Shown here: positions 8,361-59,525 of the stretch, one piece after another
Position numbering within the stretch: the first letter of the stretch is position 1
Layout of the letters: every line of letters starts with the position of its first letter
From: Mobula hypostoma
Lineage: Eukaryota
Assembly (NCBI RefSeq): GCF_963921235.1
Contig: NC_086097.1
Span: 157,792,001 to 157,856,000 of the forward strand
DNA length: 64,000 nt
Direction of reading: 5' to 3'
Program-made: the position numbers and the translations under genes
Notes under the pieces: model-generated
What the model was told of the DNA's origin: nothing
What the model saw: the letters and a program-made list of their open reading frames with translations, nothing else
The model's database searches: none

Positions 8361-10684
8361 GCTCTAATGGATGGCAGCTGTTTTTGCTTTCCTTTCCTAG
8401 TTTTCTTGGCCTTCTTTGAAACATCTTTAGATGTTGACCATGGCATCAATAGGAACCATATAAACCTGAGCTGCTGCTGTACACTCCGATTACAGGGCCA
8501 AAAACAACATGGGAAGAATAAGGTCAAAAGAAAATAAATTCTAGAAATTGAGACTGACAATCCATTGAAACACTTGTCAGAAATTGTGCTTTGCCCTTTA
8601 AACATTCTATTCATTCAGTTTTTCTATAACAGATGCTTTATTGACCTCTACGTATGTCATTGATTTCAGAGCCAAAATAACCAGATCCAAAATTTGTCCA
8701 CAGTCTTCTTTTGTGAAAACAGTGTGAATGCATTTTTAGAAGGTATTGGCTTGGCAAGTGACAAAGAGGGATATGAGAAATACACAATACGCGTTCTAAG
8801 GGACCTTTATTGGCAGTGCTGTCTGGAGAGACTGAATGTGCTCTTCTCATCTCTTTAAGTCTAATCTAAACTGAACCACCTGCCTCATGAATGTTACCAA
8901 ATGTATCCGATACAGATTACACTCTCTTATCTGAATAAACTGCAAATGGGGATTGAATTTGAATAAATGGCCACTCTGCGTCTAAGATGGAACTTTGCCA
9001 TACAGTTTCCTTTCCGAAATCAACAGTTTATTCAGGAAAACAAAGTCAAGATCCAAGAATGCAGAACGCATGGTGTCATGTTGTAGAAAAATTTAACTTA
9101 GGACATTGCATTTTTGTACTCAAAAGTCATTACTTCTCCTTAACACAAGCAATTTGGTAGCACTATAATCCCAAATGTATAGCGGAACATAGGTTCAGAG
9201 TACATCAATCCTTAGGATGCTTTGCAACACAGCTGGAGAAAAGACATAAAGCAAGAAAGAATTGATGATTGTAAATAAATTTAAGTTGGTAGTAAAAGCA
9301 TGATTTTTTTAAAGATATCTGTCATGTTTGTGGTATGGGAAGCTGGGTGGCCGTGAATTACACACAGGAGAGACAGAGAGGTGAGGAACAAATGTGCTGC
9401 TGTTTTATTTTGCTTGTGAGTCATCTACCCAGAATGCGCTCTCACATTCCGCTCAGTGCACAACACACAGGGAAGCTTGACATCAACCAGTAAGGGTGTG
9501 GTGCTGGAGCCTCCATGATTGCCTTCACCTTTGATGGTGCCTGAGTTGTCGATCACATGGCCCAAATATTCAATTGAAGGTTGAAAGAACTCACACTTCT
9601 CCTTCTGGACACTTAGCCAAAATTCCTTGGGTCTTCGTAGTGACGTATCCAAGTTTTGCAGGTGCTCACGCTCATTTTTCCCAGGAGTGAGTAAGTCATC
9701 CGAACAGAATTGCACCTCTGTTAACCTGCTCAGGATCTGATCCATTGCTCTCTGTAAAAGTACAGGAGCTGACCTGATGCTAAGTGGAAGCCTTTGGTAC
9801 CTGAACATTCCTTTGTGAGTCAGCCGTTCCTGTGACTCTGGTTCCACATACACTTGACACAAGTCAATCTTGCTAAATATCTGTCCTCTGGCCAATCCTG
9901 CATAAAGGTCATCAATGAGGGGCAGAAGGTGTTCAGCTGTCAGTACTGGGTTAATGGTTGCCTTGAAGTCTCCACAAAGTTGTAAAGACCCATCCTTTTT
10001 TAGGACAAGAACCACTGGAGCTGCCATTTTACTTACACACACTGGTTCCAACATTTTACTCTGGAGCAGTCTTTCCAGTTCACCCTCTCCCTTTAGGTTG
10101 AGGGCATATGGGTGCAGTGTCAGGTTAAACAACCATCTTAACAGAGATTCCTTTGGCACTGCTCAGTTCTCCGTTGAATACTTCTACGTGTTTCTTCAAT
10201 ACCTCTTGTAGACCAATGCCCTCACCAGTCATGTGCACTTTGCGCGAGTTGATTTTGAAATGCTCCAACCACAAGCAGCCCAGACATGCTGGATAACTAC
10301 CTTTAACAATGTAGAGTGGAAGTTCCTTTCTCTGCTCATTAATCTCCACCGTAACATGTACTACTCTCCCCACTAGAACAACTTCACCAGTGTAAGTCTT
10401 TAAAATCGACCTTGGTCCGTCTGTGGTGAGATGCTGCAATTTCTCCTTGTAAACTGTCTCTGACACCAGCAATACTGCAGCTCCCGTGTCCACCTGCATC
10501 CTTGCTGTGGCCCCATCCAACCGCAGGGTCACCCAATAGTCATTGCTATGTCCTGAAACAGATAAAACATGCAAAGCTTCTTCAACCACAGAGTGGGAGT
10601 CAGTCCATCCTCAGCATGCTCCACCTTGTTCGCATTTCTTTCTGTTTTTCCAAAGGTCACTTTTCTTTATTACAGTGTTAGTGT

Positions 10685-11517
10685 TGTTACGAGAATACAT
10701 ATAAAATTAAGATGTTTGCTGGCCTGGGCTAGCATCAGTGGCATCAGCAGTTGGTCTGCCACCTGCCCTCAGGGGAAGGAGAGATAAGGAACAATGGAGC
10801 AGCGTCTGGGGATGTGTAATGAAGGGATGTGGGAGGAAGAGCTGTCTGGAGCGGCTCCCCCCTTTAAACCCTGAACTGTTTGAAGTGATGGACAGGCGAT
10901 ACCCCAGCAGGGGGATAAAAAGGGGACAGGGTCGCTAAGACACACACACACGCCACCCGAGGTAACGAGACCCTGGAAGCGGTGCGCTTCTCACGAGTGG
11001 GTGAGAAGTCCCAGACAACGACAAGGGTGGAAAGGTACGATCAGCGGGAACCCGGTGTGTGTCCGCCCTTGCCTGGGTGCCAGGTTCACTGCAGAGGATC
11101 GACCGCATCTGGAGGAGGGGTCACAGTCGGTGACCTCAGGTGACATCACCAAGGACCTGCCCAAAAGCTGGTTGTGAGCCATCCCGCTGGTCTGAATGAT
11201 GAGTTGTTCTCTCTGTCTCTCTTCCCCCACATTGTCCACCGCCATGGCAACGATTACTGAACTACTAAACTGGACTGAACTTTGAGTCATTTTGAAATTG
11301 GTCATTTACCCCTAGACAACGATAGAGCTTGATTGATGCTGTTATCTTAATTCTGTGCACATGTGTGGTTATCATTGTTGAATTGTTGCATTTATTATCC
11401 TTTCGATTACTGTGTTGCTTGTTTCTTTAATAAAACTTTCTTAGTTCTAGTACTCCAGACTCCAACTGAGTGATCCATTTCTGCTGGTTTGGCAACCCAG
11501 TTACGGGGTACGTAACA
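10685..11517 (+). repeat. 5' LTR (833 bp)
   Basis: Direct repeat of 14642-15498; 7-bp terminal inverted repeat; AATAAA near 11429. Confidence 0.97.
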
Positions 11518-11521
11518 TAAG

Positions 11522-11548
11522 TGGGGTTCTCGTCCGCGATTTTGAACG
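11522..11548 (+). promoter_or_regulatory. Primer-binding site, tRNA-Pro-like
   Basis: tggggttctcgtccgcgattttgaac resembles TGGGGGCTCGTCCGGGATTTGAAC (complement of the tRNA-Pro 3' end), 4 nt after the LTR. Confidence 0.8.
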
Positions 11549-11616
11549 CTAAATTTGGGACGGAGTAAATTGATTGGGTTAAAATTCCCGAAAGAAAGAA
11601 AAGACAAACAGCAGAA

Positions 11617-14469
11617 ATGGAGGTTGAGGAATTTATAAAGGCGCCGACCTTGGAGGCATTAGAGGATGCCAGGAAATCGGAATTGATAGCGGTGGCCAAA
11701 CGGGTGAATCTTGCTAAGGTGAAGTCGACAATGAGGAGAGAGGAGATACACAGAGCTATTGTAGAGCACTATGTATCTAAAGGTGTGTTTCCCCAAGGTG
11801 AGCTGGGGGAGGTGTCTATTGAAAAACCTGCTGGAGACGCGGTACAGGTACAGCTTGAAAAACTGAGACTCGAGCACGAGTTCCGGGTACGGCAGTTAGA
11901 ACACGAAGAGAAGCAGTTAGAAAGGCAGGAGAAAGAGAGAGAGTTAGAAAGGCAGGAGAGGGACAGACAGTTGGAGAGAGAAGAGAGAGAGAGGGACAGA
12001 CAGTTGGAGAGAGAGGAGAAACAGAGGGAAAGGGAATTTGAGCTGGAGAAGTTAAAGATAAGGGCCGAGCAGGGGCTCGTGCCGAACCAAGGTGGAGGGT
12101 TCCGGGCGACCCAGGAGGTTAGGCTGGTTCCCCCATTTGACGATACCGATGTGGATCGGTACTTTCTTCATTTCGAAAAGGTGGCTATAAGTCAGGAATG
12201 GCCGAGGGATAAGTGGGTTGTCTTACTTCAGAGTGTACTGAAAGGGAAGGCCCAACAAGCTTACTCCGCCTTATCCGCGGAAGATGCCCAGAAGTATGAG
12301 GTGGTGAAGGAGGCCATCCTCAGGATTTATGAGTTGGTCCCGGAGGCATACCGGCAGAGGTTTCGGAATGCGAGGAAGCGGTGGGACCGCACGTATTTGG
12401 AGTTTGCTCGTGAGATGCAAACATATTGTGAGCGTTGGTGCGCCTCGAAAGGGGTAGAGGGGGATTATGACAGACTGCTGCAACTGGTTCTGATTGAGCA
12501 GTTTAAAGGTTGTGTCCCTGAGGGTATGAGACCCTACCTCGATGAGAAAGAGGCAGCCACGTTAGCCGCAACTGCTAAGTTAGCGGATGAGTATGCGTTG
12601 ACGCATAAAATGAAGGTTGCCCCGAGTAAAGGCTACCAGAAGGGTAGTCAGGACGGCGGGGAGAGTCCACCGGAAAAGTCAGAAAGTAAGCCGGGGACTA
12701 GTGAAAAGGATAAGGTAGACCGGGAGCAGCCTGGTAGGAAGTCTCCTGGGGTCGTCTGTTATAATTGTGGGAAAGTCGGACACTTTGCGTCCAGGTGCTT
12801 TGCCCCAAGGAAGGAGACGGGGAAAGGAAAAGCGGAAATTTTAAATGGCTGTATCGAGCTGTTAAGCGAACCGCTAGGGAAGGACAGGTCTGAAAAAGTC
12901 CAGGAAGGGCGCGAGAGGTTTATCTCGGCCGGACTGGCGTCAGTGAAGGAGAGGTTAAAACCAGTTCCAGTGCGGATCTGGAGAGACACGGGAGCGTGTC
13001 AGTCACTAATACTGAAGAGTGTATTAGAGTTTAGCTCAGAGACCCAGACTGGGGAGGTAGAGGTCAAAGGTGTTGGGGAAGGGACAGAGTCAGTCCCTTT
13101 GCACCAGATACATTTACAGAGCAACCTGGTCTCTGGACTAGTCACGATCGGGGTGAGGTCCGAATTACCGATGAAAGACGTGGAAGTCTTGCTCGGTAAT
13201 GACATCGCCGGAGGAATCGTGTTCCCAGTCGTGAGATTGACGGGTCAGCCTGCCAGCATGGAGGCCCCGCCCGCGATGGTGAATTTGGCTGAAACATTTC
13301 TGCCAACCTTGTATGAGACAGGGTGTAGTGAGATAAGAGGTAGTGAGGGAGCTGGGACGGACGTAGCAGTAGCCAGGAAAGAATTTGTGCAGACGCAGGA
13401 GCGAGACGAGGGGCTGATGGTTTTGGCCGAGACAGCTCTCTCTGACACAGCCTTGACAAGGGAACTAGTAGGCTATTGTGCGGATGAGGAAGTGCTAAGG
13501 AAGAAAGGGAAATCAAGTACAGCATCCGCAGATGAGGAGTGGGGGGTGGTGCAAAAGAGTTATGGGGATGAGGTTTTTAACATGGCCCACGAGGTACCCC
13601 CCGGTGGACATTTTGCGGTGCTGGAGGAAACAGTTGGTGGAATCATGAAAGAGATTTACCGGCTGCCCAGGGGGAAGAATGTTATTGATCATGACCGACG
13701 CGAACTGAGACGGTCACCGGCTTTTGATATGCTAACAAACCTAGTCGGTGTTAGCGTGGAAATCAATGATGCTAGGGGCCCCTTGATAAGAGGAAAAAAC
13801 CATTTTGAAAAGATTAGGATGGGATCGGTCAGATGGGAGAAGGCTATTGTTTTGGCCAGGTCTACTGATAAGGTCTCTCCCTTAATCCCCGAAGGAGTAA
13901 TTAAACGACTCGCACCCATGTGTTTGATTGTCCCGAGGAAATGCAAAGAACTGGGACGTTGGGTTATGTCGGTTACAATAGGGCGGCCAAGCAAACAACA
14001 CCCATATTTTTTGAGTAATTCAGTGACTAAAGGGCTGATGAACACAGAGGTGTGTATTGGCAATTTAACACGGCTGTCTGAAGCCAGCTTGATAGTGAAC
14101 CTTGGAAAAAATGAATTCGGCCACGCGAATGTCACTTACCTGGGAATTGTGGTGACACAGGGGCAGCTGGCAGTGATGCAAGCTACAGTGCAAGCTATCG
14201 CTGACCTCCCAACCCCGACAGACAAGAGGGCCCTCAGAAGGCTCTTGGAGATGGTGGGGTACTGCAGGAAGTTTTGCAATAACTCTGCGGTCAATACCCG
14301 TCCCCCTCCTACTAAGCCCTTGCGAGAGAAAACTGAGTCGGAATGGGACGACCCTTGTTATTGTGGTCCGGGACAAAACCAAATGAGAGGTTACATTGGT
14401 CGCAATTCATCAGTGTTTTTGGCCACTATGAAGTTTGCTGAGTTGGAGCCTGGTCTAAGGGATTATTAA
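11617..14469 (+). CDS. Gag (coiled coil, SCAN-like domain, CCHC knuckle)-protease fused to eroded IN/RT/RNase H remnants, 950 aa
   Basis: E/R/Q-rich repeat; PEAYRQRFR...LIEQF...KLADEY; CYNCGKVGHFASRC; RDTGA and VLLGND; AHEVPPGGH; EFGHANVTYLGIVV and LEMVGYCRKFC. Confidence 0.92.
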   Translation: MEVEEFIKAPTLEALEDARKSELIAVAKRVNLAKVKSTMRREEIHRAIVEHYVSKGVFPQGELGEVSIEKPAGDAVQVQLEKLRLEHEFRVRQLEHEEKQLERQEKERELERQERDRQLEREERERDRQLEREEKQREREFELEKLKIRAEQGLVPNQGGGFRATQEVRLVPPFDDTDVDRYFLHFEKVAISQEWPRDKWVVLLQSVLKGKAQQAYSALSAEDAQKYEVVKEAILRIYELVPEAYRQRFRNARKRWDRTYLEFAREMQTYCERWCASKGVEGDYDRLLQLVLIEQFKGCVPEGMRPYLDEKEAATLAATAKLADEYALTHKMKVAPSKGYQKGSQDGGESPPEKSESKPGTSEKDKVDREQPGRKSPGVVCYNCGKVGHFASRCFAPRKETGKGKAEILNGCIELLSEPLGKDRSEKVQEGRERFISAGLASVKERLKPVPVRIWRDTGACQSLILKSVLEFSSETQTGEVEVKGVGEGTESVPLHQIHLQSNLVSGLVTIGVRSELPMKDVEVLLGNDIAGGIVFPVVRLTGQPASMEAPPAMVNLAETFLPTLYETGCSEIRGSEGAGTDVAVARKEFVQTQERDEGLMVLAETALSDTALTRELVGYCADEEVLRKKGKSSTASADEEWGVVQKSYGDEVFNMAHEVPPGGHFAVLEETVGGIMKEIYRLPRGKNVIDHDRRELRRSPAFDMLTNLVGVSVEINDARGPLIRGKNHFEKIRMGSVRWEKAIVLARSTDKVSPLIPEGVIKRLAPMCLIVPRKCKELGRWVMSVTIGRPSKQHPYFLSNSVTKGLMNTEVCIGNLTRLSEASLIVNLGKNEFGHANVTYLGIVVTQGQLAVMQATVQAIADLPTPTDKRALRRLLEMVGYCRKFCNNSAVNTRPPPTKPLREKTESEWDDPCYCGPGQNQMRGYIGRNSSVFLATMKFAELEPGLRDY

Positions 14470-14629
14470 TAACACGTGTAAAAGGAACAGAAAATGTGAT
14501 GACTGTCTGTCAAGGTGTTGACAGCTTCAAATTCTCTGTATTAGCTAAATAACTGTTAAAGATGTATATTGTGTATGTATCAGATAATGTAGTCATGTTT
14601 GTAATTTTTACCTCCCGGTAAAAATCCTT

Positions 14630-14641
14630 AAAGGGGGGAAG
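14630..14641 (+). promoter_or_regulatory. Polypurine tract
   Basis: aaaggggggaag immediately before the 3' LTR. Confidence 0.9.
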
Positions 14642-15498
14642 TGTTACGAGAATACACATAAAATTAAGATGTTTGCTGGCCTGGGCTAGCATCAGTGGCA
14701 TCAGCAGTTGGTCTGCCACCTGCCCTCAGGGGAAGGAGAGATAAGGAACAATGGAGCAGCGTCTGGGGATGTGTAATGAAGGGATGTGGGAGGAAGAGCT
14801 GTCTGGAGCGGCTCCCCCCTTTAAACCCTGAACTGTTTGAAGTGATGGACAGGCGATACCCCAGCAGGGGGATAAAAAGGGGACAGGTTCGCTAAGACAC
14901 ACACACACGCCACCCGAGGTAACGAGACCCTGGAAGCGGTGCGCTTCTCACGAGTGGGTGAGAAGTCCCAGACAACGACAAGGGTGGAAAGGTACGATCA
15001 GCGGGAACCCGGTGTGTGTCCGCCCTTGCCTGGGTGCCGGGTTCACTGCAGAGGATCGACCGCATCTGGAGGAGGGGTCACAGTCGGTGACCTCAGGTGA
15101 CATCACCAAGGACCTGCCCAAAAGCTGGTTGTGAGCCATCCCGCTGGTCTGTGAGTGAAGCTGTGCTGAATGATGAGTTGTTCTCTCTGTCTCTCTTCCC
15201 CCACATTGTCCACCGCCATGGCAACGATTACTGCGAACTGAACTACTAAACTGGACTGAACTTTGAGTCATTTTGAAATTGGTCATTTACCCCTAGACAA
15301 CGATAGAGCTTGATTGATGCTGTTATCTTAATTCTGTGCACATGTGTGGTTATCATTGTTGAATTGTTGCATTTATTATCCTTTCGATTACTGTGTTGCT
15401 TGTTTCTTTAATAAAACTTTCTTAGTTCTAGTACTCCAGACTCCAACTGAGTGATCCATTTCTGCTGGTTTGGCAACCCAGTTACGGGGTACGTAACA
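14642..15498 (+). repeat. 3' LTR (857 bp)
   Basis: Matches the 5' LTR apart from about three substitutions seen by eye and two extra segments of 17 and 7 bp. Confidence 0.97.
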
Positions 15499-17507
15499 GT
15501 GTCTTTTTACTTTTACAGGTGCATTCAATATGACCCTTTTTGCCACAACTCCAGCAATACAAATCCTTATACCAGCATTCCTTTTCTGAATGCCCAGTTT
15601 TACCACAAAGGTAACATTGAGGCCAATAGGTCTCTTATTCTTAAAGTCAGTAGAGACTTCATGAACTTGGCAGATATGCTTAACAGGTGTGCTTCTTTAG
15701 CTGCCATCTCCGTGGATGGACTAATCTCCACTGACTTCTGTAATGTTAGTTTGTCTTTTGTAAGTAAATGTTTCTGAATTGCCTCACTACTCAGACCACA
15801 TACCAGTCTATCATGTAACGTGTCATTCAGTGACTGCCCAGAATCACAGTGTTCAGACAATTGCTTCCACACCACCACAAACTGTGAAACAGACCGCCTT
15901 CCTCTTTATTCCTTTTATGAAATCTAAACATCTCAGCGATAATCAATGGTTTAAGAGTACAGTGGTCCTTTGAGACTTGAACTATATTCTCATAAGGCTT
16001 ATCATCCAGTTTAGCAAGTTGCACTAGATGGGTTAATAAATTATACATTTTTGCACCCACAGTCAGAATAGTTGGAACACGAATATCATCTGGAATTTGA
16101 TTTGCCAGTGCAAAATATTCAAATCTTTCAGGATATGAACTCCATTGCTCTTCTGTTCCATCATAATTCCAAACATTGTCACCATTTTCAAAGGCAATCA
16201 CACTCCAGAACAGTTAACCAGTCTTATCCCTCTATTTCTCCTTCTCTTACTTGTTTTATTTAACCAACTCATTCTCATTCCCTCCTCTTCACTCACCATG
16301 CTTCCTGCAGCTTCCTGCAGCTTCCTTGTCGCTCACCCACATTACACAGCGGTACATCACCAACACCTGCACACTGACTTTTTTTTGCCCATGGGAACGC
16401 AACAATATTGTCACCTTGTTACCAGTGGTTACGTTTGTGGGACTGGGAAGTGGAGTGGCCATGAATAATGCGCATGAGAGATGGAGAGAAGAGGAACAAG
16501 CATGCTGTGGTTTATTTTAATTGTAAGTCATCTACCCAGAATGCCCTCTCATATTACGTTCAGTACGTAACACACAGGGAAGCTTGACAGCAGCCTGTAA
16601 GGGTCAAAATATACATGAATAGATTACAGTATTTAATGATTAAAGAAATAAAGCCTATTTATATGTGCATGCAATATCTATGTCCCCTATATATCATTAA
16701 TTATGCAGATAAGGTTCTTCTAAATTAAATATTTTGTTAAAGCTTACAGATAAGTACTGACACGCAGGAAGAACTCCTCCAGCAAGCACTTGTTTTCCAG
16801 CCTCAGCAATTTTCCCACCCAGGTTGAAGATTAACATTTAATGACATTTAGAAACCTCACACAACAACGTAGGATTCTCTCAGCCAACCTCATTTGTTTT
16901 TTTTTCTATGAAGTAGATGAAATTTATTCAAGGAATTCTATATTTCTCCTCTTCAAAGAAATCACTTTCCTTAAAATGAACTGGCAATTATCTTTTATAT
17001 GTATTATTACCCTCCCTATCACACAAGAGGCCATTTGGTCCATCAAGTCTATGCTGGCTCACAGAACAATTTCATTCTCCCACCAACTTTTCCCACAACC
17101 TATTTTCTTCACATTCACATCCATGGCAATTTTGGGAAAATTTACAATGGCTGAATAGCCAATCAACCGGCACCTTGCTGGGATGTGGGAGGAAACACGG
17201 TATAAACTCTATGCAGTCACAAAAAAGATGCCAGACCTAGATGCAGTGGCTTCTATGGGGCCGACAACCAAAGGTGGTTTAAACATATTTGTTACAAGTG
17301 CAAACCCTGCTTTACATTAGGAACTTCAAGTACTGCAGGTCTACCATGTCACTGAGTTGCTTATTGGCAGAGAAATTGGAGGAGCTGGACTTGGTGCAGA
17401 TTGTGCTGCCACCCACATCAGAGAGGTGTCAGAAGAATTGGTGCAAGAAGGCAGAGTGCAGTCTAACAGCTTGTGATCATCTTTGTCGTTTTTCTTGTGA
17501 TCGCAAG

Positions 17508-53460: not shown

Positions 53461-55994
53461 TGTTTATAATATTTCAGAAAGGTTTGGGACAATTGGAAAA
53501 TTACTTTTAACTATTATATTACTACACTTACAAAAATGAACATGTCTAGAAATTGATAAGTACTTATAAAGACATAATAAGCAATCTGCTTATGAAGGCC
53601 CAAAGCTCCTCTTGTCCGAGAGCCCACTTCTGAGAGATTCAGTAATGTATAAAGTCGTACACTCAAGGCCATTCTTTCTTACAATCTACTATTGCAAAGA
53701 ATGCATTGGACAAAGGGTCATTCAGAGGTTAGAACTGTGCAAAAGTTGGGACTGGAGGTGGGGGGGATTTGAAGTGAATCAATGGCAGAGGGAACAGTGA
53801 TGGGAGAGGACAGGGCAAGTAAAATCAAATAAGCAGAATTGGAATTGGAAGGTGTGGCTAGCAGATAAAGGGTAAATTAGGTAATGGAAATATCCCTCTG
53901 GGGTTCTGGTCATCTTTGGTGTGAGTGCAAAATTGGGCCAAAATGTAGGCAGGTGATAAAGTAGGCAGCTGTTCAGTTGGTTGCATTGGCAAATCAGTGT
54001 GTGGAGAGTAAGTAGTGGCTAAGGTTCTTGTGCTTTTATCTGCTCAGGTGAAAAGCTGTGCTGTGAAATTCCACTTCTTCAATAGTAGCTTATGAACTTC
54101 ATGTGTAAATCATGTGCAATTGAAAATAACAAGTTATATCTAGCTGTCCATGGCACATCACTTGTCACCACTGCACATGTCTGGGATCCTCTGTGTTTGA
54201 GCATGCTTAATACAAATGGAGTCCAATTGAAAATCACACATCTTGCAGTTCACATTGCCCTCAATTTGAAATTATATTTGATTACTACTGTTGTATATTT
54301 GATATGTCAAAAATATTTGAGTACTCTTGTATAAATACTTTGATTAAGCATTCCTGTTTGTTTAAATAATTATGGTTTATATGTAAAAATAGGTTAGCTG
54401 CATATGTCATCATGCTACTATTTGATACATGTATGCCTCGCTTAAAGTAAACTCGAACTTGACCCATATTCCCGAACTCCTGTGTCTTTCTTTGAATTAC
54501 TTTAATGTTTTGAAGTTACAAAATATAACATTGATGATGAGGTATTTTCAAAATGAACCCAAAACAGCTACCAACATGTTAAAGCGGAGTGAAATTTTCG
54601 AACTAAATAAAACAGATTATCGCAGCCCAGCAGGTGGAGAGACAGTCTTCAGAAGAGAAGACACAATCAAGTTTTGTTTTTTCAAAAGCCAGGAAATGGA
54701 AGAATTCATAGGTTCATGAAGAGTGAGTACTGGGTGATAACAATCAATTTAAAAAAATCAGAAATGCCTGGCTACATCAGAAAGATTGAAGAATTGGATT
54801 ATACAACAGGTAATTGCCTCATGTATGCTGATCTTTTGAAACAGTATTTTGAAGCAAATGAAATAACCAATGAGAAAAAAGAGTCAATTTTTCTAAGTGC
54901 ATTAAGTTTAAAGGTATACAGTTTGCTTTGAAGTTTGACTGCTCCAACCAAACCTGCAGAAATTAGCTTTCCTGATATAATGCACGAACATTTCATACTA
55001 AAACCATTGTTAGTAGCAGAATGCTTTAGGTTTCATCAGCAGAATCAAAAAGAAGGCGAATTCATTTCAGTGTACTTGGCTGAATTGAAGAGATTGAGCA
55101 TTGTCAGTTTGATGATGGACGAAATGATACACTGAGAAATGATACACTGGAACCTTAAAAGAAAGCAATGAAAAAACAGTTCCTATCTGTAGTGCAGCTT
55201 ACATTCAAACAAACACTTGAAATTGCTGTTTCAATGGAAACCGCAAACAGAGATGTAATTCAGTCACAGTCAAGAATGAAAGAAAGTGTGAACAGAATTG
55301 CATCTTCTAAACAGAAGCTGGCCTGGCCGAAAAAATTGCGTTATCATTGTGGCAGGTGCTCACGTACATCAAAAAAAATGCAATTTAAAGACAAAGCTTG
55401 CAGAAAATGCAAAAAAGCATGTCTTAAACAAAGAGCATGTTGGGCAGACAAAAATAAATGGATTGCTCCGGAAAGAGAAAAAGCTAAAAAGTCAATTAGC
55501 AGTTTCGAAAAAAACACTAACCTGCATGCTATTGATGAAAAATCCGATAATGATGAGAGTGAACCAGGACTGGGTATCCTTGATATTTACAATTTGGAAA
55601 CTAACAGGAGACAAGCAATACAGCTTATGAAAGAAGTGAATGGCAAATTCATTAAAATGGATTTGGACACTGGTTTAGCTGTTTCTGTCATTCCAAAAAA
55701 TTGAGTTTGAGAGGCATTTCAAAGATACCAAACTGAAGCTTGCAGATATTCAACTAAGAACTTATAAAGAAGGAAAGATAACTCCTGTGGGAATGACATT
55801 TGTGACAGTGAAATACAACAATCAGCAAGCCACATTGACTTTGTAAGTGGTAAAAGCAGAAGGACCAGCATGGTGGGGGTGTGATTGGCTGAGACAACTA
55901 CAACTTGACTGGAAATCCATCCACCATTTGTATGCCACATCCCTTGCAATGAAACCAACTGAAAGTGAATTAAGAAAGGTACTGGATGATACCA

Positions 55995-56595
55995 CAACTA
56001 TCTCCGTGCCGAACACCATGAACTGTTGCCCAACAGAGGACAAGCAGGTGTTGGTGGTAACATCTGTGATCTGGTTGAAAAGCATATTTGACCAAGGATG
56101 GACCATGTTGCTCAGAGAAAGTGTGAAAATGACAAATGCAGTGGCCCAACTACAACAGTTTTCCTATGCAATGCATCTGAGAAAGCTTCTGATATGTTAA
56201 TCAGGCAGTGACTTGTGAAATAAGGCTTGGTTTTAGGCTGGAAGGGAATTCAAAGAGCTTCCAGGAAGTTGCAAACATTCGGCTTTTGTGAGTATAGAAA
56301 AAATAATCTGCTCTGCATGCATGAAGGATATTGCCTGAACTTCAAGTGGAGACAAAAAGCTGCTTGCAAAAGTAGATGCAAAGGTCAAAGCCCAGATGGA
56401 TGAATGGAAGGCCAAAAAGAAAGGAGTCAATGGAGATACAAAAACAGTGGATTCATCAGATGATGTTGTGGATGTGGAAACCAAGAGGAGAGATCAGATT
56501 GTAAAAGGAAAGATTAATAAGAGAATACTCCAGTGAACTGAACGGATCACTCAAAGATCAAGGCACACAAATTAGAGAAGAAAAGGGAAGGTGAA
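55995..56595 (+). pseudogene. RBM25: Processed RBM25 fragment (N-terminal linker, RRM and following helix) inside an LTR element
   Basis: Translation GPTTTVFLCNASEKASDMLIRQ*LVK*GLVLGWKGIQRASRKLQTFGFCEY...KLLAKVDAKVKAQMDEWKAKKK...ETKRRDQIVKG...REYSSELN matches the recalled RBM25 sequence GPTTTVFVGNISEKASDMLIRQLLAKCGLVLSWKRVQGASGKLQAFGFCEY...KLLVKVDAKTKAQLDEWKAKKK...ETKRRDQMIKG...REYSSELN. Confidence 0.93.
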
Positions 56596-56952
56596 GAAAG
56601 GCGTCCTCAGCTGTCAGAACCACTTCTCAGAGTCAACTCCTACAACCACCACAGAAAAGTCCCCAGAACCCGAGGTTGCTTTCACAGTCATAAATCTCAC
56701 CTGCCAAACAGAGTGATCCCTTGTCAAGCAAAACATTATCCCACTAGAGTAAGAAATCCTCCACAGTGATTAAATCTTTAAGTCTGAATGGAACAATTTA
56801 AAATTTACCATGCTGTAGATGTCTGTATATTGTAGTTGTAATATATAGTACACTGTGTATGTAGTAATGCAATTTATATTGAGTTGGAGTTCACAGCTAA
56901 GGAAGGAGGAGTGTTGTGTATTTGGTGGTTCAATAATATTTGAGTAATCTTG

Positions 56953-56972
56953 TATATATATATATATATATA
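56953..56972. repeat. (TA)n expansion inside the 3' LTR
   Basis: The 5' LTR has only tataaata at the equivalent site. Confidence 0.85.
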
Positions 56973-57649
56973 GTTTGATTACGTGTTCCTATGTTTAAAT
57001 AATTAATTATGGCTTATATGTAAAATATGTTAATTGTATACATCATCACGCTACCGCATGATACACGCACAGCTCACTTAAACTTAAACTAGACCTGTAT
57101 TCCCAAACTCCAGTGTCTTTCTTTGAATTACTTCAATATTTTGAAGTCACTAAACATAACAATTACTGACTGTGAATTGTCTAATACACAACGATGTGGT
57201 ACTATGTATTCCAGTTTCTGGATAAAAGCTACCCGTACATACACAATTTTTTTTTGGTTCCTCCAATTGAATTACTGAGATACAACATTCCAAGCTGTAA
57301 GGACCAAAAGGAGGGGCCAAAAAAAAAAACACTGAATCTATGCCGAAACAGAAAATCTACGATTTTTTTTTCTCTATTGAAATTCAGTGGCTTGATTTGA
57401 ACAACTGAATATACTCCATAAGTTAGAAAATCAAAAATCTTTAAGTTTCCAATATGGCTATACACCTAAAAAACTGGAGCTTTCATTTTAACTCACACAG
57501 TACCTATCCTCTTAGACATTAAATGGCATTGGGAAACTAAAAGGCATTATCTGATCTGAACCACAACATATTGGCTGATTCATATGTTCCTGTTCCACTG
57601 GACACTGGTCAGGTCTCAGATACTGAGTCTGCCTCTGTGTCTCAGAAGG

Positions 57650-59525
57650 GAAGGGGCGGGGAGAAGAAGAGGTATGCTGTGGTGATGGGGTATTCATTAG
57701 TTAGGGCAATGGACAGGAGGTTCTCCAGGCGAGAATGAGATTCCTGGATGTTATGTTGCCTCCTGTGTGCGAGGGTCCAGGATATCTCGGATTGAGTCCC
57801 CAGCATTCATAAACAGAAGGGTAAACAGCCAGAAGTTGTGGTCCATGTAGGCACCAAAGACATGGGTAGGCCTAGTGATGTTTCTGCATTGGGATGGGAG
57901 TTCAGGGAGTTAGGTGCTAATTTAAAGGACAGACACTCCAGGGTTGTGATCTCAGGATTGCTACCTGTGCTATGTGTATTGAGGCCAGAATTAGACAGAT
58001 TATACTATTTAATATATGGCTAAGGAGTTGGTGTTGAAGGGAGGGCACAGAAATTGGTGAGATCTCAGACAAAGTCAGGAATCAAAAGGTGTGACTAGCG
58101 TCCTGAGAGCATATATTTCAATGCAAGATGTGTCGCAGAAAGAGGGACAATAGTGCTGAAGATGAGGTAGCTGGTTTACAAACAGAGGCAATTTGTAGTG
58201 AGTATAGGCTGTTAATGGGACAAAATTGCAGAATGAGTTGCAATATAAAAATCAGAAAAAAAAAATCAAAAAGGGTGCACACAGGACTGAAGCCTGAATG
58301 TGTTATATTTGAATGTGCGCAGTATACAGAATAAGGTAGATGAACTTGCAGCACAGTTACAAATTGGCAGGTATGATGTTGTAGGCATCACTAGACCATT
58401 GCTGAAACATTATAGCTCGGAGCTTAATGTCCAAGGATACACACTTTATCAAAAAGACAGACAGGAAGGCAGAGGGACAGCGATGTTCTGTTGGTTAAAA
58501 GTGAAATTAAGTCATTAGAAAGAGGTGACATAGGCTCGGAAGGTGTTGAATCATTGTGGATAGAGCGAATGAACTGCAAAGGTAAAAAAAGAACCTGATA
58601 GGAGTTGTATACAGACCCCCACACAGTAGTAAGGATGTGGTCAACTAATCACAATGGGAGAAAGAAAATACATGCCAAAAGGGCAATATTACAATAGTCA
58701 TGGGGGATTTCAAAGTGCAGATTATGCAGGTAGATTGAGAAAATTGGGTTGGTGCTGTATTTTAGGAGAGGTTATTTCTAGAGTGCCTACGAGATGGCTT
58801 TTTAGGGCAGCTCATGGTTGAGGACACTAAGGGATCAGCTATTTGGGATTGGGTGCTGTGCAATGAATCAGAATTGATTAGAGAGCTTAAGGTAAAAGGA
58901 CCCTTAGGGGAAAATGATCATATGATTGAATTCACCCTGAAATTTGAGAAAGAATCTAGTCAAATGTATCAGTATTATAGAAGAGCAAAAGGAATTACAG
59001 AGGCATGAGAGAGGAGTTGGCCAGAATTGATTGGAAAAGAACACTGGCAGGGATAACAGCAGAGCAGCAATGGGTGGAATTTCTGGAAGCAATTCAGAAG
59101 CCACAGCATATATACATTGCAAAGAGGAAGAAGTATTCTAAAGAAAAGATGACAATGTGGCTAACAAGAAAAGTCAAAGCCAGTGGGAGGTCATATAATA
59201 GAGCAAAAACTAGTCAGACATGTCTAGTCAGATTGGGAAGCTTTTAAACACAAACAGAAAACAACAAAAGTCACTACGAAGGTCAAGATGGAATACAAAA
59301 TTAAGCTAACCAATAATATTAAAGAGAATACCAAAAGTTTCTTCAGATACGTAAAGTGCAAAACAGAGGCAAGCGTAGATGTCAGACCGCTGGAAAGCAA
59401 TGCTGGAGAGGTAGTAATGGGGGACAAGGAAATGGCAGACCAACTGAAAAAGTATTTTGCATCAGTCTTTACTGTGGAAGACACTGGCAGTATGTTGGAA
59501 GTTCCAGGTGTCAGGGGTCATGAAG
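57650..59525 (+). mobile_element. CR1 LINE upstream portion: ORF1 SGNH-esterase remnant, APE endonuclease and tether, degraded
   Basis: VVHVGTKDMGR, RVVISGLLP (ORF1 esterase); LYLNVRSIQNKVDEL, YDVVGIT, MGDF, PLGENDHMIEF (APE); YFASVFTVED. Confidence 0.88.

What the first reader, a model, noticed from the sequence alone, without database searches (positions are those of the whole stretch)
54289..57161. LTR retrotransposon that captured a spliced host mRNA fragment (RBM25) in place of its RT/RNase H/integrase
Seen: complete LTR-PBS-gag-protease architecture; just after ESELRKVLDDT (about 55990) the sequence switches to about 600 bp of RBM25-like coding sequence in the sense orientation, then returns near 56595 to the integrase C-terminal tail (...YPTRVRNPPQ), PPT and 3' LTR. 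No poly(A) or TSD flanks the RBM25 piece, and pol sequence is missing at exactly that site. Known: RBM25 is a conserved splicing factor and this region spans several exons in vertebrates; double template switching onto co-packaged mRNA is how retroviruses capture oncogenes. Inference: a transducing, non-autonomous Gypsy lineage that may have amplified an RRM-bearing chimera (possibly once a Gag-PR-RRM fusion). This copy is decayed (stops at 56209 and 56221, frameshifts, diverged LTRs).
Basis: partly seen in the sequence, partly recalled or inferred. Interest (0 to 1): 0.92.

Follow-up and report, generated by a model that had tools for sequence, protein, structure and literature searches.

The report
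Retrotransposon family carrying spliced RBM25 fragment
A dead jumping gene swapped its copying enzymes for an intron-free piece of the host splicing-factor gene RBM25, and the hybrid was then copied to more than a thousand places in this genome, a known kind of accident seen at unusually large scale and with no sign that the cargo still does anything.

Summary
Confirmed. Window 54289-57161 is a decayed Ty3/Gypsy-type element: LTRs, tRNA-Ser primer site, gag-protease (residues 1-407 of a 1322-aa Gag-Pol), polypurine tract, 5-bp target duplication. RT, RNase H and the integrase core are replaced by spliced RBM25 mRNA: five host exons match end to end, without introns or poly(A). Both switch points lie in microhomologies (7 and about 9 nt) shared by RBM25 and pol-bearing siblings, as double template switching predicts. 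The chimera multiplied: 1,026 genomic matches to the 5' junction and 1,013 to an exon-exon join (controls 0), against 2,146 pol-type junctions; perhaps 1,500-2,800 copies. The founder carried exons 3-10, including a cassette exon; a derivative lacking exon 8 dominates, and this copy is a shorter form still. None of 30 copies examined is intact, and private changes look neutral. The 5' junction is in frame, but a functional Gag-PR-RRM protein is unsupported: 19 near-fixed synonymous differences fit ordinary host drift and could not be polarised. The mechanism is published (Tan 2016; maize Bs1, 1-5 copies); the scale is what stands out. The scan noted this family before at another locus of this genome.

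The parts
54284..54288 (+). left target-site duplication (ACTAC)
   Evidence: 4 of 5 match with right copy
54289..54530 (+). 5' LTR
54532..54542 (+). decayed primer-binding site complementary to the 3' end of tRNA-Ser(GCT)
   Evidence: 8 of 11 here, 7-10 of 11 in six other copies
54764..55989 (+). broken gag and aspartyl protease plus linker (residues 1 to about 403 of Gag-Pol P0149)
55990..55996 (+). 5' switch point: 7-nt microhomology shared by pol and the end of RBM25 exon 3 (one mismatch in this copy)
55997..55999 (+). last bases of RBM25 exon 3
56000..56047 (+). 48-nt in-frame cassette exon of RBM25 (host C1:99832633-99832586, AG/GT borders)
56048..56217 (+). RBM25 exon 4 (start of the RRM)
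56218..56275 (+). RBM25 exon 5 (RRM)
56276..56434 (+). RBM25 exon 6 (end of the RRM)
56435..56568 (+). RBM25 exon 7, cut short by the deletion that removes exon 8
56569..56591 (+). start of RBM25 exon 9, remnant left by nested deletions in the purine-rich RE/RD region
   Evidence: read by eye against sibling copies; this copy's own blast hit is to exon 10
56592..56601 (+). 3' switch point: purine-rich microhomology shared by RBM25 exon 10 and the integrase tail
56602..56769 (+). C-terminal tail of pol after the integrase core (ends ...YPTRVRNPPQ)
   Evidence: motif compared by eye with the end of P0149
56896..56911 (+). polypurine tract
56912..57161 (+). 3' LTR
57162..57166 (+). right target-site duplication (ATTAC)

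Best explanation
One old event made the family. An RBM25 mRNA (isoform with the 48-nt cassette exon) was packaged into a particle of a Ty3/Gypsy element. During minus-strand synthesis reverse transcriptase jumped from the integrase tail onto the mRNA at exon 10 (purine-rich microhomology), copied about 1 kb, and jumped back at the end of exon 3 (7-nt microhomology), dropping about 2.4 kb of RT, RNase H and integrase. The product kept every cis signal (LTRs, primer site, polypurine tract) and was mobilised in trans by pol-bearing relatives to well over 1,000 sites. During further rounds the repetitive RE/RD part was pruned by microhomology deletions, and the deleted forms were amplified in turn. 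The cargo is a passenger; all copies seen have decayed neutrally since insertion. Shown: structure, intron loss, both junctions, copy counts, deletion series, decay. Inferred: co-packaging, template switching as the actual route, trans-mobilisation, absence of function.
For: Five exons joined without introns; 27 of 30 copies cross all 5 exon borders, 3 cross 4. Of the 20 best protease hits fetched (of 39 non-self listed), 15 run into RBM25 at the same point and 5 continue as pol; one of two pol-type loci extended shows RT and RNase H and matches P0149 to residue 1082. Microhomology of 7 or more nt arises at 0.05% of random breakpoint pairs, 9 or more at 0.006%. 14 of 20 best tail hits fetched carry RBM25 upstream. 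Whole-genome counts of 23-mers: 5' junction 1,026, exon 5/6 join 1,013, exon 7-to-9 deletion join 1,007 (2 mismatches), undeleted exon 7 end 196 (3 mismatches), pol-type junction 2,146; reversed controls all 0. L018 keeps exons 8, 9 and 10. Separate 5-bp target duplications: 4 of 5 in the window, L012 and L007, 3 of 5 in L017 and L026. 0 of 30 copies free of stops and frameshifts, median 3 breaks; private changes flat over codon positions, 138/167/139; linkage among mid-frequency variants no higher than shuffles, 14 pairs against a mean of 11.
Against: Target duplication not recovered in L014 and not scorable in L027 (2 of 7 pairs checked). The 19 differences from the host shared by at least 23 of 29 copies are all synonymous, which neutral passage through a long-lived master would not give; it needs either amplification soon after capture or selection. 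One non-synonymous shared difference lies just outside the stretch counted (seen). All loci examined are best hits to this copy, so they are biased to the least decayed members and to this length class. No intact helper element was looked for. Template switching cannot be told from DNA-level recombination with a cDNA by sequence alone.
Confidence: 0.85

Rival explanations
1. The cargo was kept because it helped the element: while the family was active it made a Gag-protease-RRM(RBM25) polyprotein, from which the protease could release an RNA-binding module that aided packaging, export or escape from splicing, and the master copies were under purifying selection.
For: Sense orientation and in-frame 5' junction in 30 of 34 scorable copies; the whole RRM is kept in the length classes seen while the region behind it is pruned; 19 near-fixed differences from the host are all synonymous and no high-frequency non-CpG amino-acid change falls in the RRM; the chimera reached about half the count of pol-type junctions.
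Against: About 19-23 synonymous differences on about 167 sites (0.11-0.14) is what the host gene alone would gather in the time that gave 0.08-0.12 neutral change per copy. An in-frame join has a 1-in-3 prior and descends from one event. Pruning of only the RE/RD part is explained by its repeats. 0 of 30 copies intact. Earlier scan notes report other cargos, one antisense, amplified in the same genome (not checked here), which suggests any filler will do.
Confidence: 0.1
2. A spliced RBM25 cDNA or pre-existing retrocopy recombined with an integrated element at the DNA level (microhomology-mediated repair), and that locus then became the master.
For: Gives the same junctions, intron loss and replacement of pol.
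Against: Needs two microhomology joins and a free cDNA; no stand-alone RBM25 retrocopy appeared among 29 other loci fetched (28 continue into protease sequence, 28 into tail or LTR); the pattern equals the template-switch model in Tan et al. 2016.
Confidence: 0.04
3. A LINE inserted an RBM25 processed pseudogene into a resident element after integration; pol was lost separately.
For: The genome is rich in LINE-like sequence around the element (read by eye); LINEs are the usual source of retrocopies (established knowledge).
Against: No poly(A), no duplication at the cargo ends, cargo lacks the whole 3' half of the mRNA, pol is not contiguous across it (about 800 residues missing), microhomology at both ends, same junction at over 1,000 sites.
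Confidence: 0.01

Closest known systems
LTR-mediated retrocopies of animals (Tan et al. 2016, PMC5131818; abstract, sections 6 and 9 and passages read)
   Same: Partial spliced mRNA between discontinuous LTR-element sequence, microsimilarity at both switch points, no poly(A) or target duplication around the cargo, sense orientation, secondary retroposition of one chimera with shared switch points.
   Different: Their cases are young and have one or a few insertion sites (18 sites for nine Drosophila retrocopies); here one old chimera has at least 1,000 sites and its own series of amplified deletion derivatives.
Maize Bs1 (known here only through the passage in Tan et al. 2016)
   Same: LTR element whose internal region is replaced by exonic host sequence; all copies share the switch points.
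   Different: Bs1 has 1-5 copies, three parental genes and is described as giving a hybrid protein; this family has one parent gene, hundreds of times more copies and no intact copy among 30.
Acutely transforming retroviruses that transduce host oncogenes (recalled, no call)
   Same: Replication-defective genome with host mRNA fused in frame to gag-side sequence, dependent on a helper.
   Different: No envelope, no infection, no evidence that the cargo was selected; a germ-line fossil.
Ty3/Gypsy Gag-Pol P0149
   Same: Single-frame gag-PR-RT-RH-IN layout; 37-45% identity over gag and protease; same C-terminal motif.
   Different: RT, RNase H and integrase core absent from the window's element.

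Membership tests
Ty3/Gypsy LTR retrotransposon (derivative) | Paired LTRs ending TG..CA with a target-site duplication | tested here: met
   5-bp duplication, 4 of 5 matching
Ty3/Gypsy LTR retrotransposon (derivative) | tRNA primer-binding site and polypurine tract | tested here: met
   tRNA-Ser(GCT) genes in the genome; 7-10 of 11 bases match in seven copies; tract
Ty3/Gypsy LTR retrotransposon (derivative) | Domain order PR-RT-RH-IN in the parent | tested here: met
   P0149 and pol-type sibling L056/L070 collinear with it from residue 389 to 1082
Ty3/Gypsy LTR retrotransposon (derivative) | Placement in a named clade by an RT tree | not tested
   no RT tree built; clade not assigned
Autonomous Gypsy element | Encodes RT, RNase H and integrase | tested here: not met
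   no match past residue about 410 in the window's element or in any of 30 loci
LTR-mediated retrocopy (Tan et al. 2016) | Intron-less partial copy of a host mRNA | tested here: met
LTR-mediated retrocopy (Tan et al. 2016) | Flanked on both sides by discontinuous sequence of one LTR element | tested here: met
LTR-mediated retrocopy (Tan et al. 2016) | Microsimilarity at the switch points | tested here: met
   7 nt and about 9 nt; chance 0.05% and 0.006%
LTR-mediated retrocopy (Tan et al. 2016) | Co-transcription from the LTR | tested here: inconclusive
   contigs cross the 5' junction in runs X2 and X4, but library type, strand and level are unknown
LINE-mediated processed pseudogene | Poly(A) tail, intact 3' end, target duplication around the insert | tested here: not met
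Functional retrogene / domesticated fusion | Intact frame and purifying selection in the copy lineage | tested here: inconclusive
   0 of 30 intact and private changes neutral; near-fixed synonymous differences not polarised; only 30 of more than 1,000 copies seen

The most novel reading that the evidence does not exclude
The RRM was not filler: the family spread as a selected Gag-protease-RRM transducing element, a retrotransposon counterpart of an oncogene-carrying retrovirus that borrowed a splicing factor's RNA-binding domain to out-replicate; or, on the host side, more than 1,000 transposon-embedded RBM25 exon copies exposed an essential splicing gene to piRNA silencing and drove synonymous escape in the captured exons.
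Probability: 0.12. Interest if true: 0.8.

Novelty: new variant of a known kind. Interest (0 to 1): 0.5.

Why it matters
It shows that the 'further cycles of retroposition' proposed for LTR-mediated retrocopies can run to thousands of copies in a vertebrate, so that one capture turns a host gene fragment into an ordinary high-copy repeat. Both template-switch scars, the pol-bearing parent and a nested deletion series are all readable in one genome. The copies preserve an old splice isoform (cassette exon included, a neighbouring 30-nt exon skipped) and a population-scale record of the host's ancestral coding sequence, which gives a clean neutral-versus-selected comparison. Practically, such families can inflate gene-family counts, confuse RNA-seq mapping for RBM25, or be dropped from retrocopy catalogues: the VGP pipeline filters candidates that overlap repeats by 40% or more and needs 500 kb between copies of one parent (PMC13320880, passage).

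Tried and rejected
Pfam on the window's own fragments found nothing significant: too decayed; identity came through P0149 and the profile search instead. PDB search gave only a weak RRM hit, E 0.45; the word-indexed protein search with the RRM piece found nothing. The second pol-type locus extended (L071) is truncated and interrupted, and L070 lacks the tail, so the 3' junction rests on L076 and, by eye, L085. Sequencing runs: no RNA holder listed; four runs of two coded organisms were laid, all as contigs with library type not on record, so nothing is claimed about level or strand. The table of other letters was too sparse and mixed to polarise host-versus-copy differences. Ratios of N to S rates rest on an assumed transition bias (private class 1.56), so only the flat codon-position pattern is used. 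L020 was dropped because it is 1.2% from L009 over the cargo. First-look candidate numbers (2,803 cargo, 4,505 protease, 3,882 tail) are not copy numbers. Literature: eight searches (listings only, except the two papers read) listed no paper on an RBM25-carrying element; the library lacks most subscription journals and repeat databases were not available, and the supplements of Tan 2016 and of the VGP preprint (retrocopy tables) were not seen and could list this family.

Full report
1. Direct repeats at 54289-54530 and 56912-57161 bound the element; they differ at 46 of 236 aligned sites, K2P 0.23, end in TG..CA and are flanked by ACTAC and ATTAC. The bases after the 5' LTR match the 3' end of tRNA-Ser(GCT) at 8 of 11 positions here and 7-10 of 11 in six other copies; a polypurine tract precedes the 3' LTR. 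A 1322-aa Gag-Pol found with a sibling's gag (P0149; ten Pfam families) aligns to window 54764-56002 over residues 1-407 and nowhere else in the element. About 800 residues (RT, RNase H, integrase core) are missing; only the tail behind them returns.

2. The cargo is spliced RBM25. Its translation hits 145 proteins (best E 2.8e-22); one is named RNA-binding protein 25 and has RRM and PWI domains. I found the host gene through its PWI exon on contig C1, minus strand, and fetched 150 kb. The window matches five exons end to end at 79-88% with four introns missing. All six exons used have AG/GT borders and give an open spliced frame (exon numbers assume one unlocated non-coding first exon). The first full exon, 48 nt, is not in the reference proteins: it is a cassette exon in intron 3. 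Loose ends in runs X2 and X4 show it spliced to another 30-nt exon of the same intron, so it is a real exon and the element fossilised one isoform.

3. Both junctions carry template-switch scars. Of the 20 best protease hits fetched, 15 turn into RBM25 at the same base and 5 continue as pol. Pol, host exon 3 and the chimera share TGCCACA there. At the other end host exon 10 and the pol tail share GAGAAGAAA (pol side seen in L076 and, by eye, L085); 14 of the 20 best tail hits fetched carry RBM25, five are pol-type or deleted pol, one is unrelated upstream. Random breakpoint pairs give 7 or more shared bases in 0.05% and 9 or more in 0.006% of 200,000 draws. There is no poly(A), no duplication round the cargo, and the 3' half of the mRNA is absent.

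4. The chimera amplified. A search with the cargo returned 40 other matches at 80-83% (capped). Of 29 other loci fetched, 28 continue into protease sequence and 28 into tail or LTR; none has pol core. Whole-genome pattern counts (23-mers, two mismatches): 5' junction 1,026; exon 5/6 join 1,013; pol-type junction 2,146; reversed controls 0. The 5' pattern detects 21 of 45 known copies and the exon-join pattern 19 of 28, both biased upward, so 1,500-2,200 is a cautious estimate; the 2,803 first-look candidates are of the same order. Target duplications differ between loci: 4 of 5 in the window, L012 and L007; 3 of 5 in L017 and L026; not found in L014; not scorable in L027.

5. It replicated through several rounds. 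L018 keeps exons 8, 9 and the start of 10, so the founder ran from exon 3 to exon 10. Of 30 loci, 28 join exon 7 to the start of exon 9, 1 keeps the exon 7 end and 1 could not be scored. Genome-wide the deletion join has 1,007 matches and the undeleted end 196, at three mismatches from an atypical copy and including the host gene and a few deleted forms; both forms were amplified. Behind that join the RE/RD remnant comes in a longer class (about 155-200 nt to the tail anchor) and a shorter one (72-88 nt), the window's copy among the latter. The exon 7-to-9 join shifts the RBM25 frame behind the RRM (read). Deletion between direct repeats during reverse transcription is the likely cause (established retroviral behaviour, recalled).

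6. Function. The 5' junction is in frame with protease in 30 of 34 scorable copies (11 of 45 not scored), so the founder could have encoded Gag-PR-RRM. But 0 of 30 copies lack stops and frameshifts (median 3 breaks), copies are 11.6% from the host and 15.3% from each other, and private substitutions fall evenly on codon positions (138/167/139). Mid-frequency variants are no more linked than shuffles (14 against a mean of 11, maximum 21): a star-like burst followed by neutral decay. The one result that cuts the other way: 19 differences from the host shared by at least 23 of 29 copies are all synonymous, with one amino-acid difference just past the counted stretch. Their number (0.11-0.14 per synonymous site) matches what the host gene would itself gather while copies drifted 0.08-0.12, so host drift plus prompt amplification explains it; selection on the masters is not excluded without an outgroup. 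At a recalled neutral rate near 1e-9 per site and year the LTR pair would be roughly 100 million years old; that rate comes from no call.

7. Other organisms and expression. Four runs from two coded organisms and two studies lay 367-1,191 contigs each on the element, most under 90% alike; contigs cross the 5' junction in X2 (record 10) and X4 (records 28, 30, 31). The family is therefore present in those samples; library types are not on record and contigs give no level or strand.

8. Comparison with the known. Tan et al. 2016 (PMC5131818; abstract, sections 6 and 9, passages) describe the same anatomy in flies, mosquito, zebrafish, chicken and mammals, with microsimilarity at both ends and secondary retroposition; they cite maize Bs1 at 1-5 copies. 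This element meets every sequence-level criterion of that class; co-transcription is untested. It differs in scale, age and in its amplified deletion series. Eight literature searches listed nothing on this family; the VGP preprint (PMC13320880, passages) has no 'RBM25' in its main text and filters repeat-overlapping retrocopies; supplements were not seen.

9. Verdict. Real feature; new high-copy variant of a known mechanism. Best explanation 0.85; selected fusion about 0.1; interest 0.5. The open question, whether the RRM was ever selected, is decidable with outgroup RBM25 sequences; the state of the founder's full reading frame stays open.

Noticed in passing
window 10685-15498: A very young LTR element (LTRs 833 and 857 nt, 3 substitutions and 2 gaps; 4-bp target duplication GTGT) with one open 966-aa frame carrying a SCAN domain and a CCHC knuckle, but only a weak remnant match to pol. 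It looks like a recently mobile, non-autonomous SCAN-gag Gypsy (Gmr1-like; label recalled) nested in an older Gypsy element at about 9336-16604 on the minus strand.
   Followed up: partly
host gene, G000:C1:99837505-99837476 and 99832633-99832586 (L040): RBM25 intron 3 holds two in-frame cassette exons, 30 nt and 48 nt, both with AG/GT borders. Contigs of runs X2 and X4 join the 30-nt exon directly to the 48-nt exon, so both are spliced today; the captured isoform has only the 48-nt one.
   Followed up: partly
L009 and L020 (C96, about 1.2 Mb apart): Two copies only 1.2% apart over the counted cargo but with different ends behind exon 7, and L009 has a tandem repeat of part of the cargo: recent conversion or duplication.
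   Followed up: no
L081, L084, L090: Cargo-free deletion derivatives join RNase H or integrase sequence to the tail at nearly the same purine-rich point as the RBM25 chimera, so this spot may be a general template-switch hot spot.
   Followed up: no
same genome, notes: Earlier scan notes describe other Gypsy families with SUDS3, RNF213, MYH16-like and USP35 cargo; if right, mRNA capture followed by amplification recurred in this lineage. They also call the organism a ray; neither claim was checked here.
   Followed up: no
window 57600-58080: LINE-like sequence with an esterase-type ORF1 look begins just downstream of the element (read by eye; label recalled).
   Followed up: no
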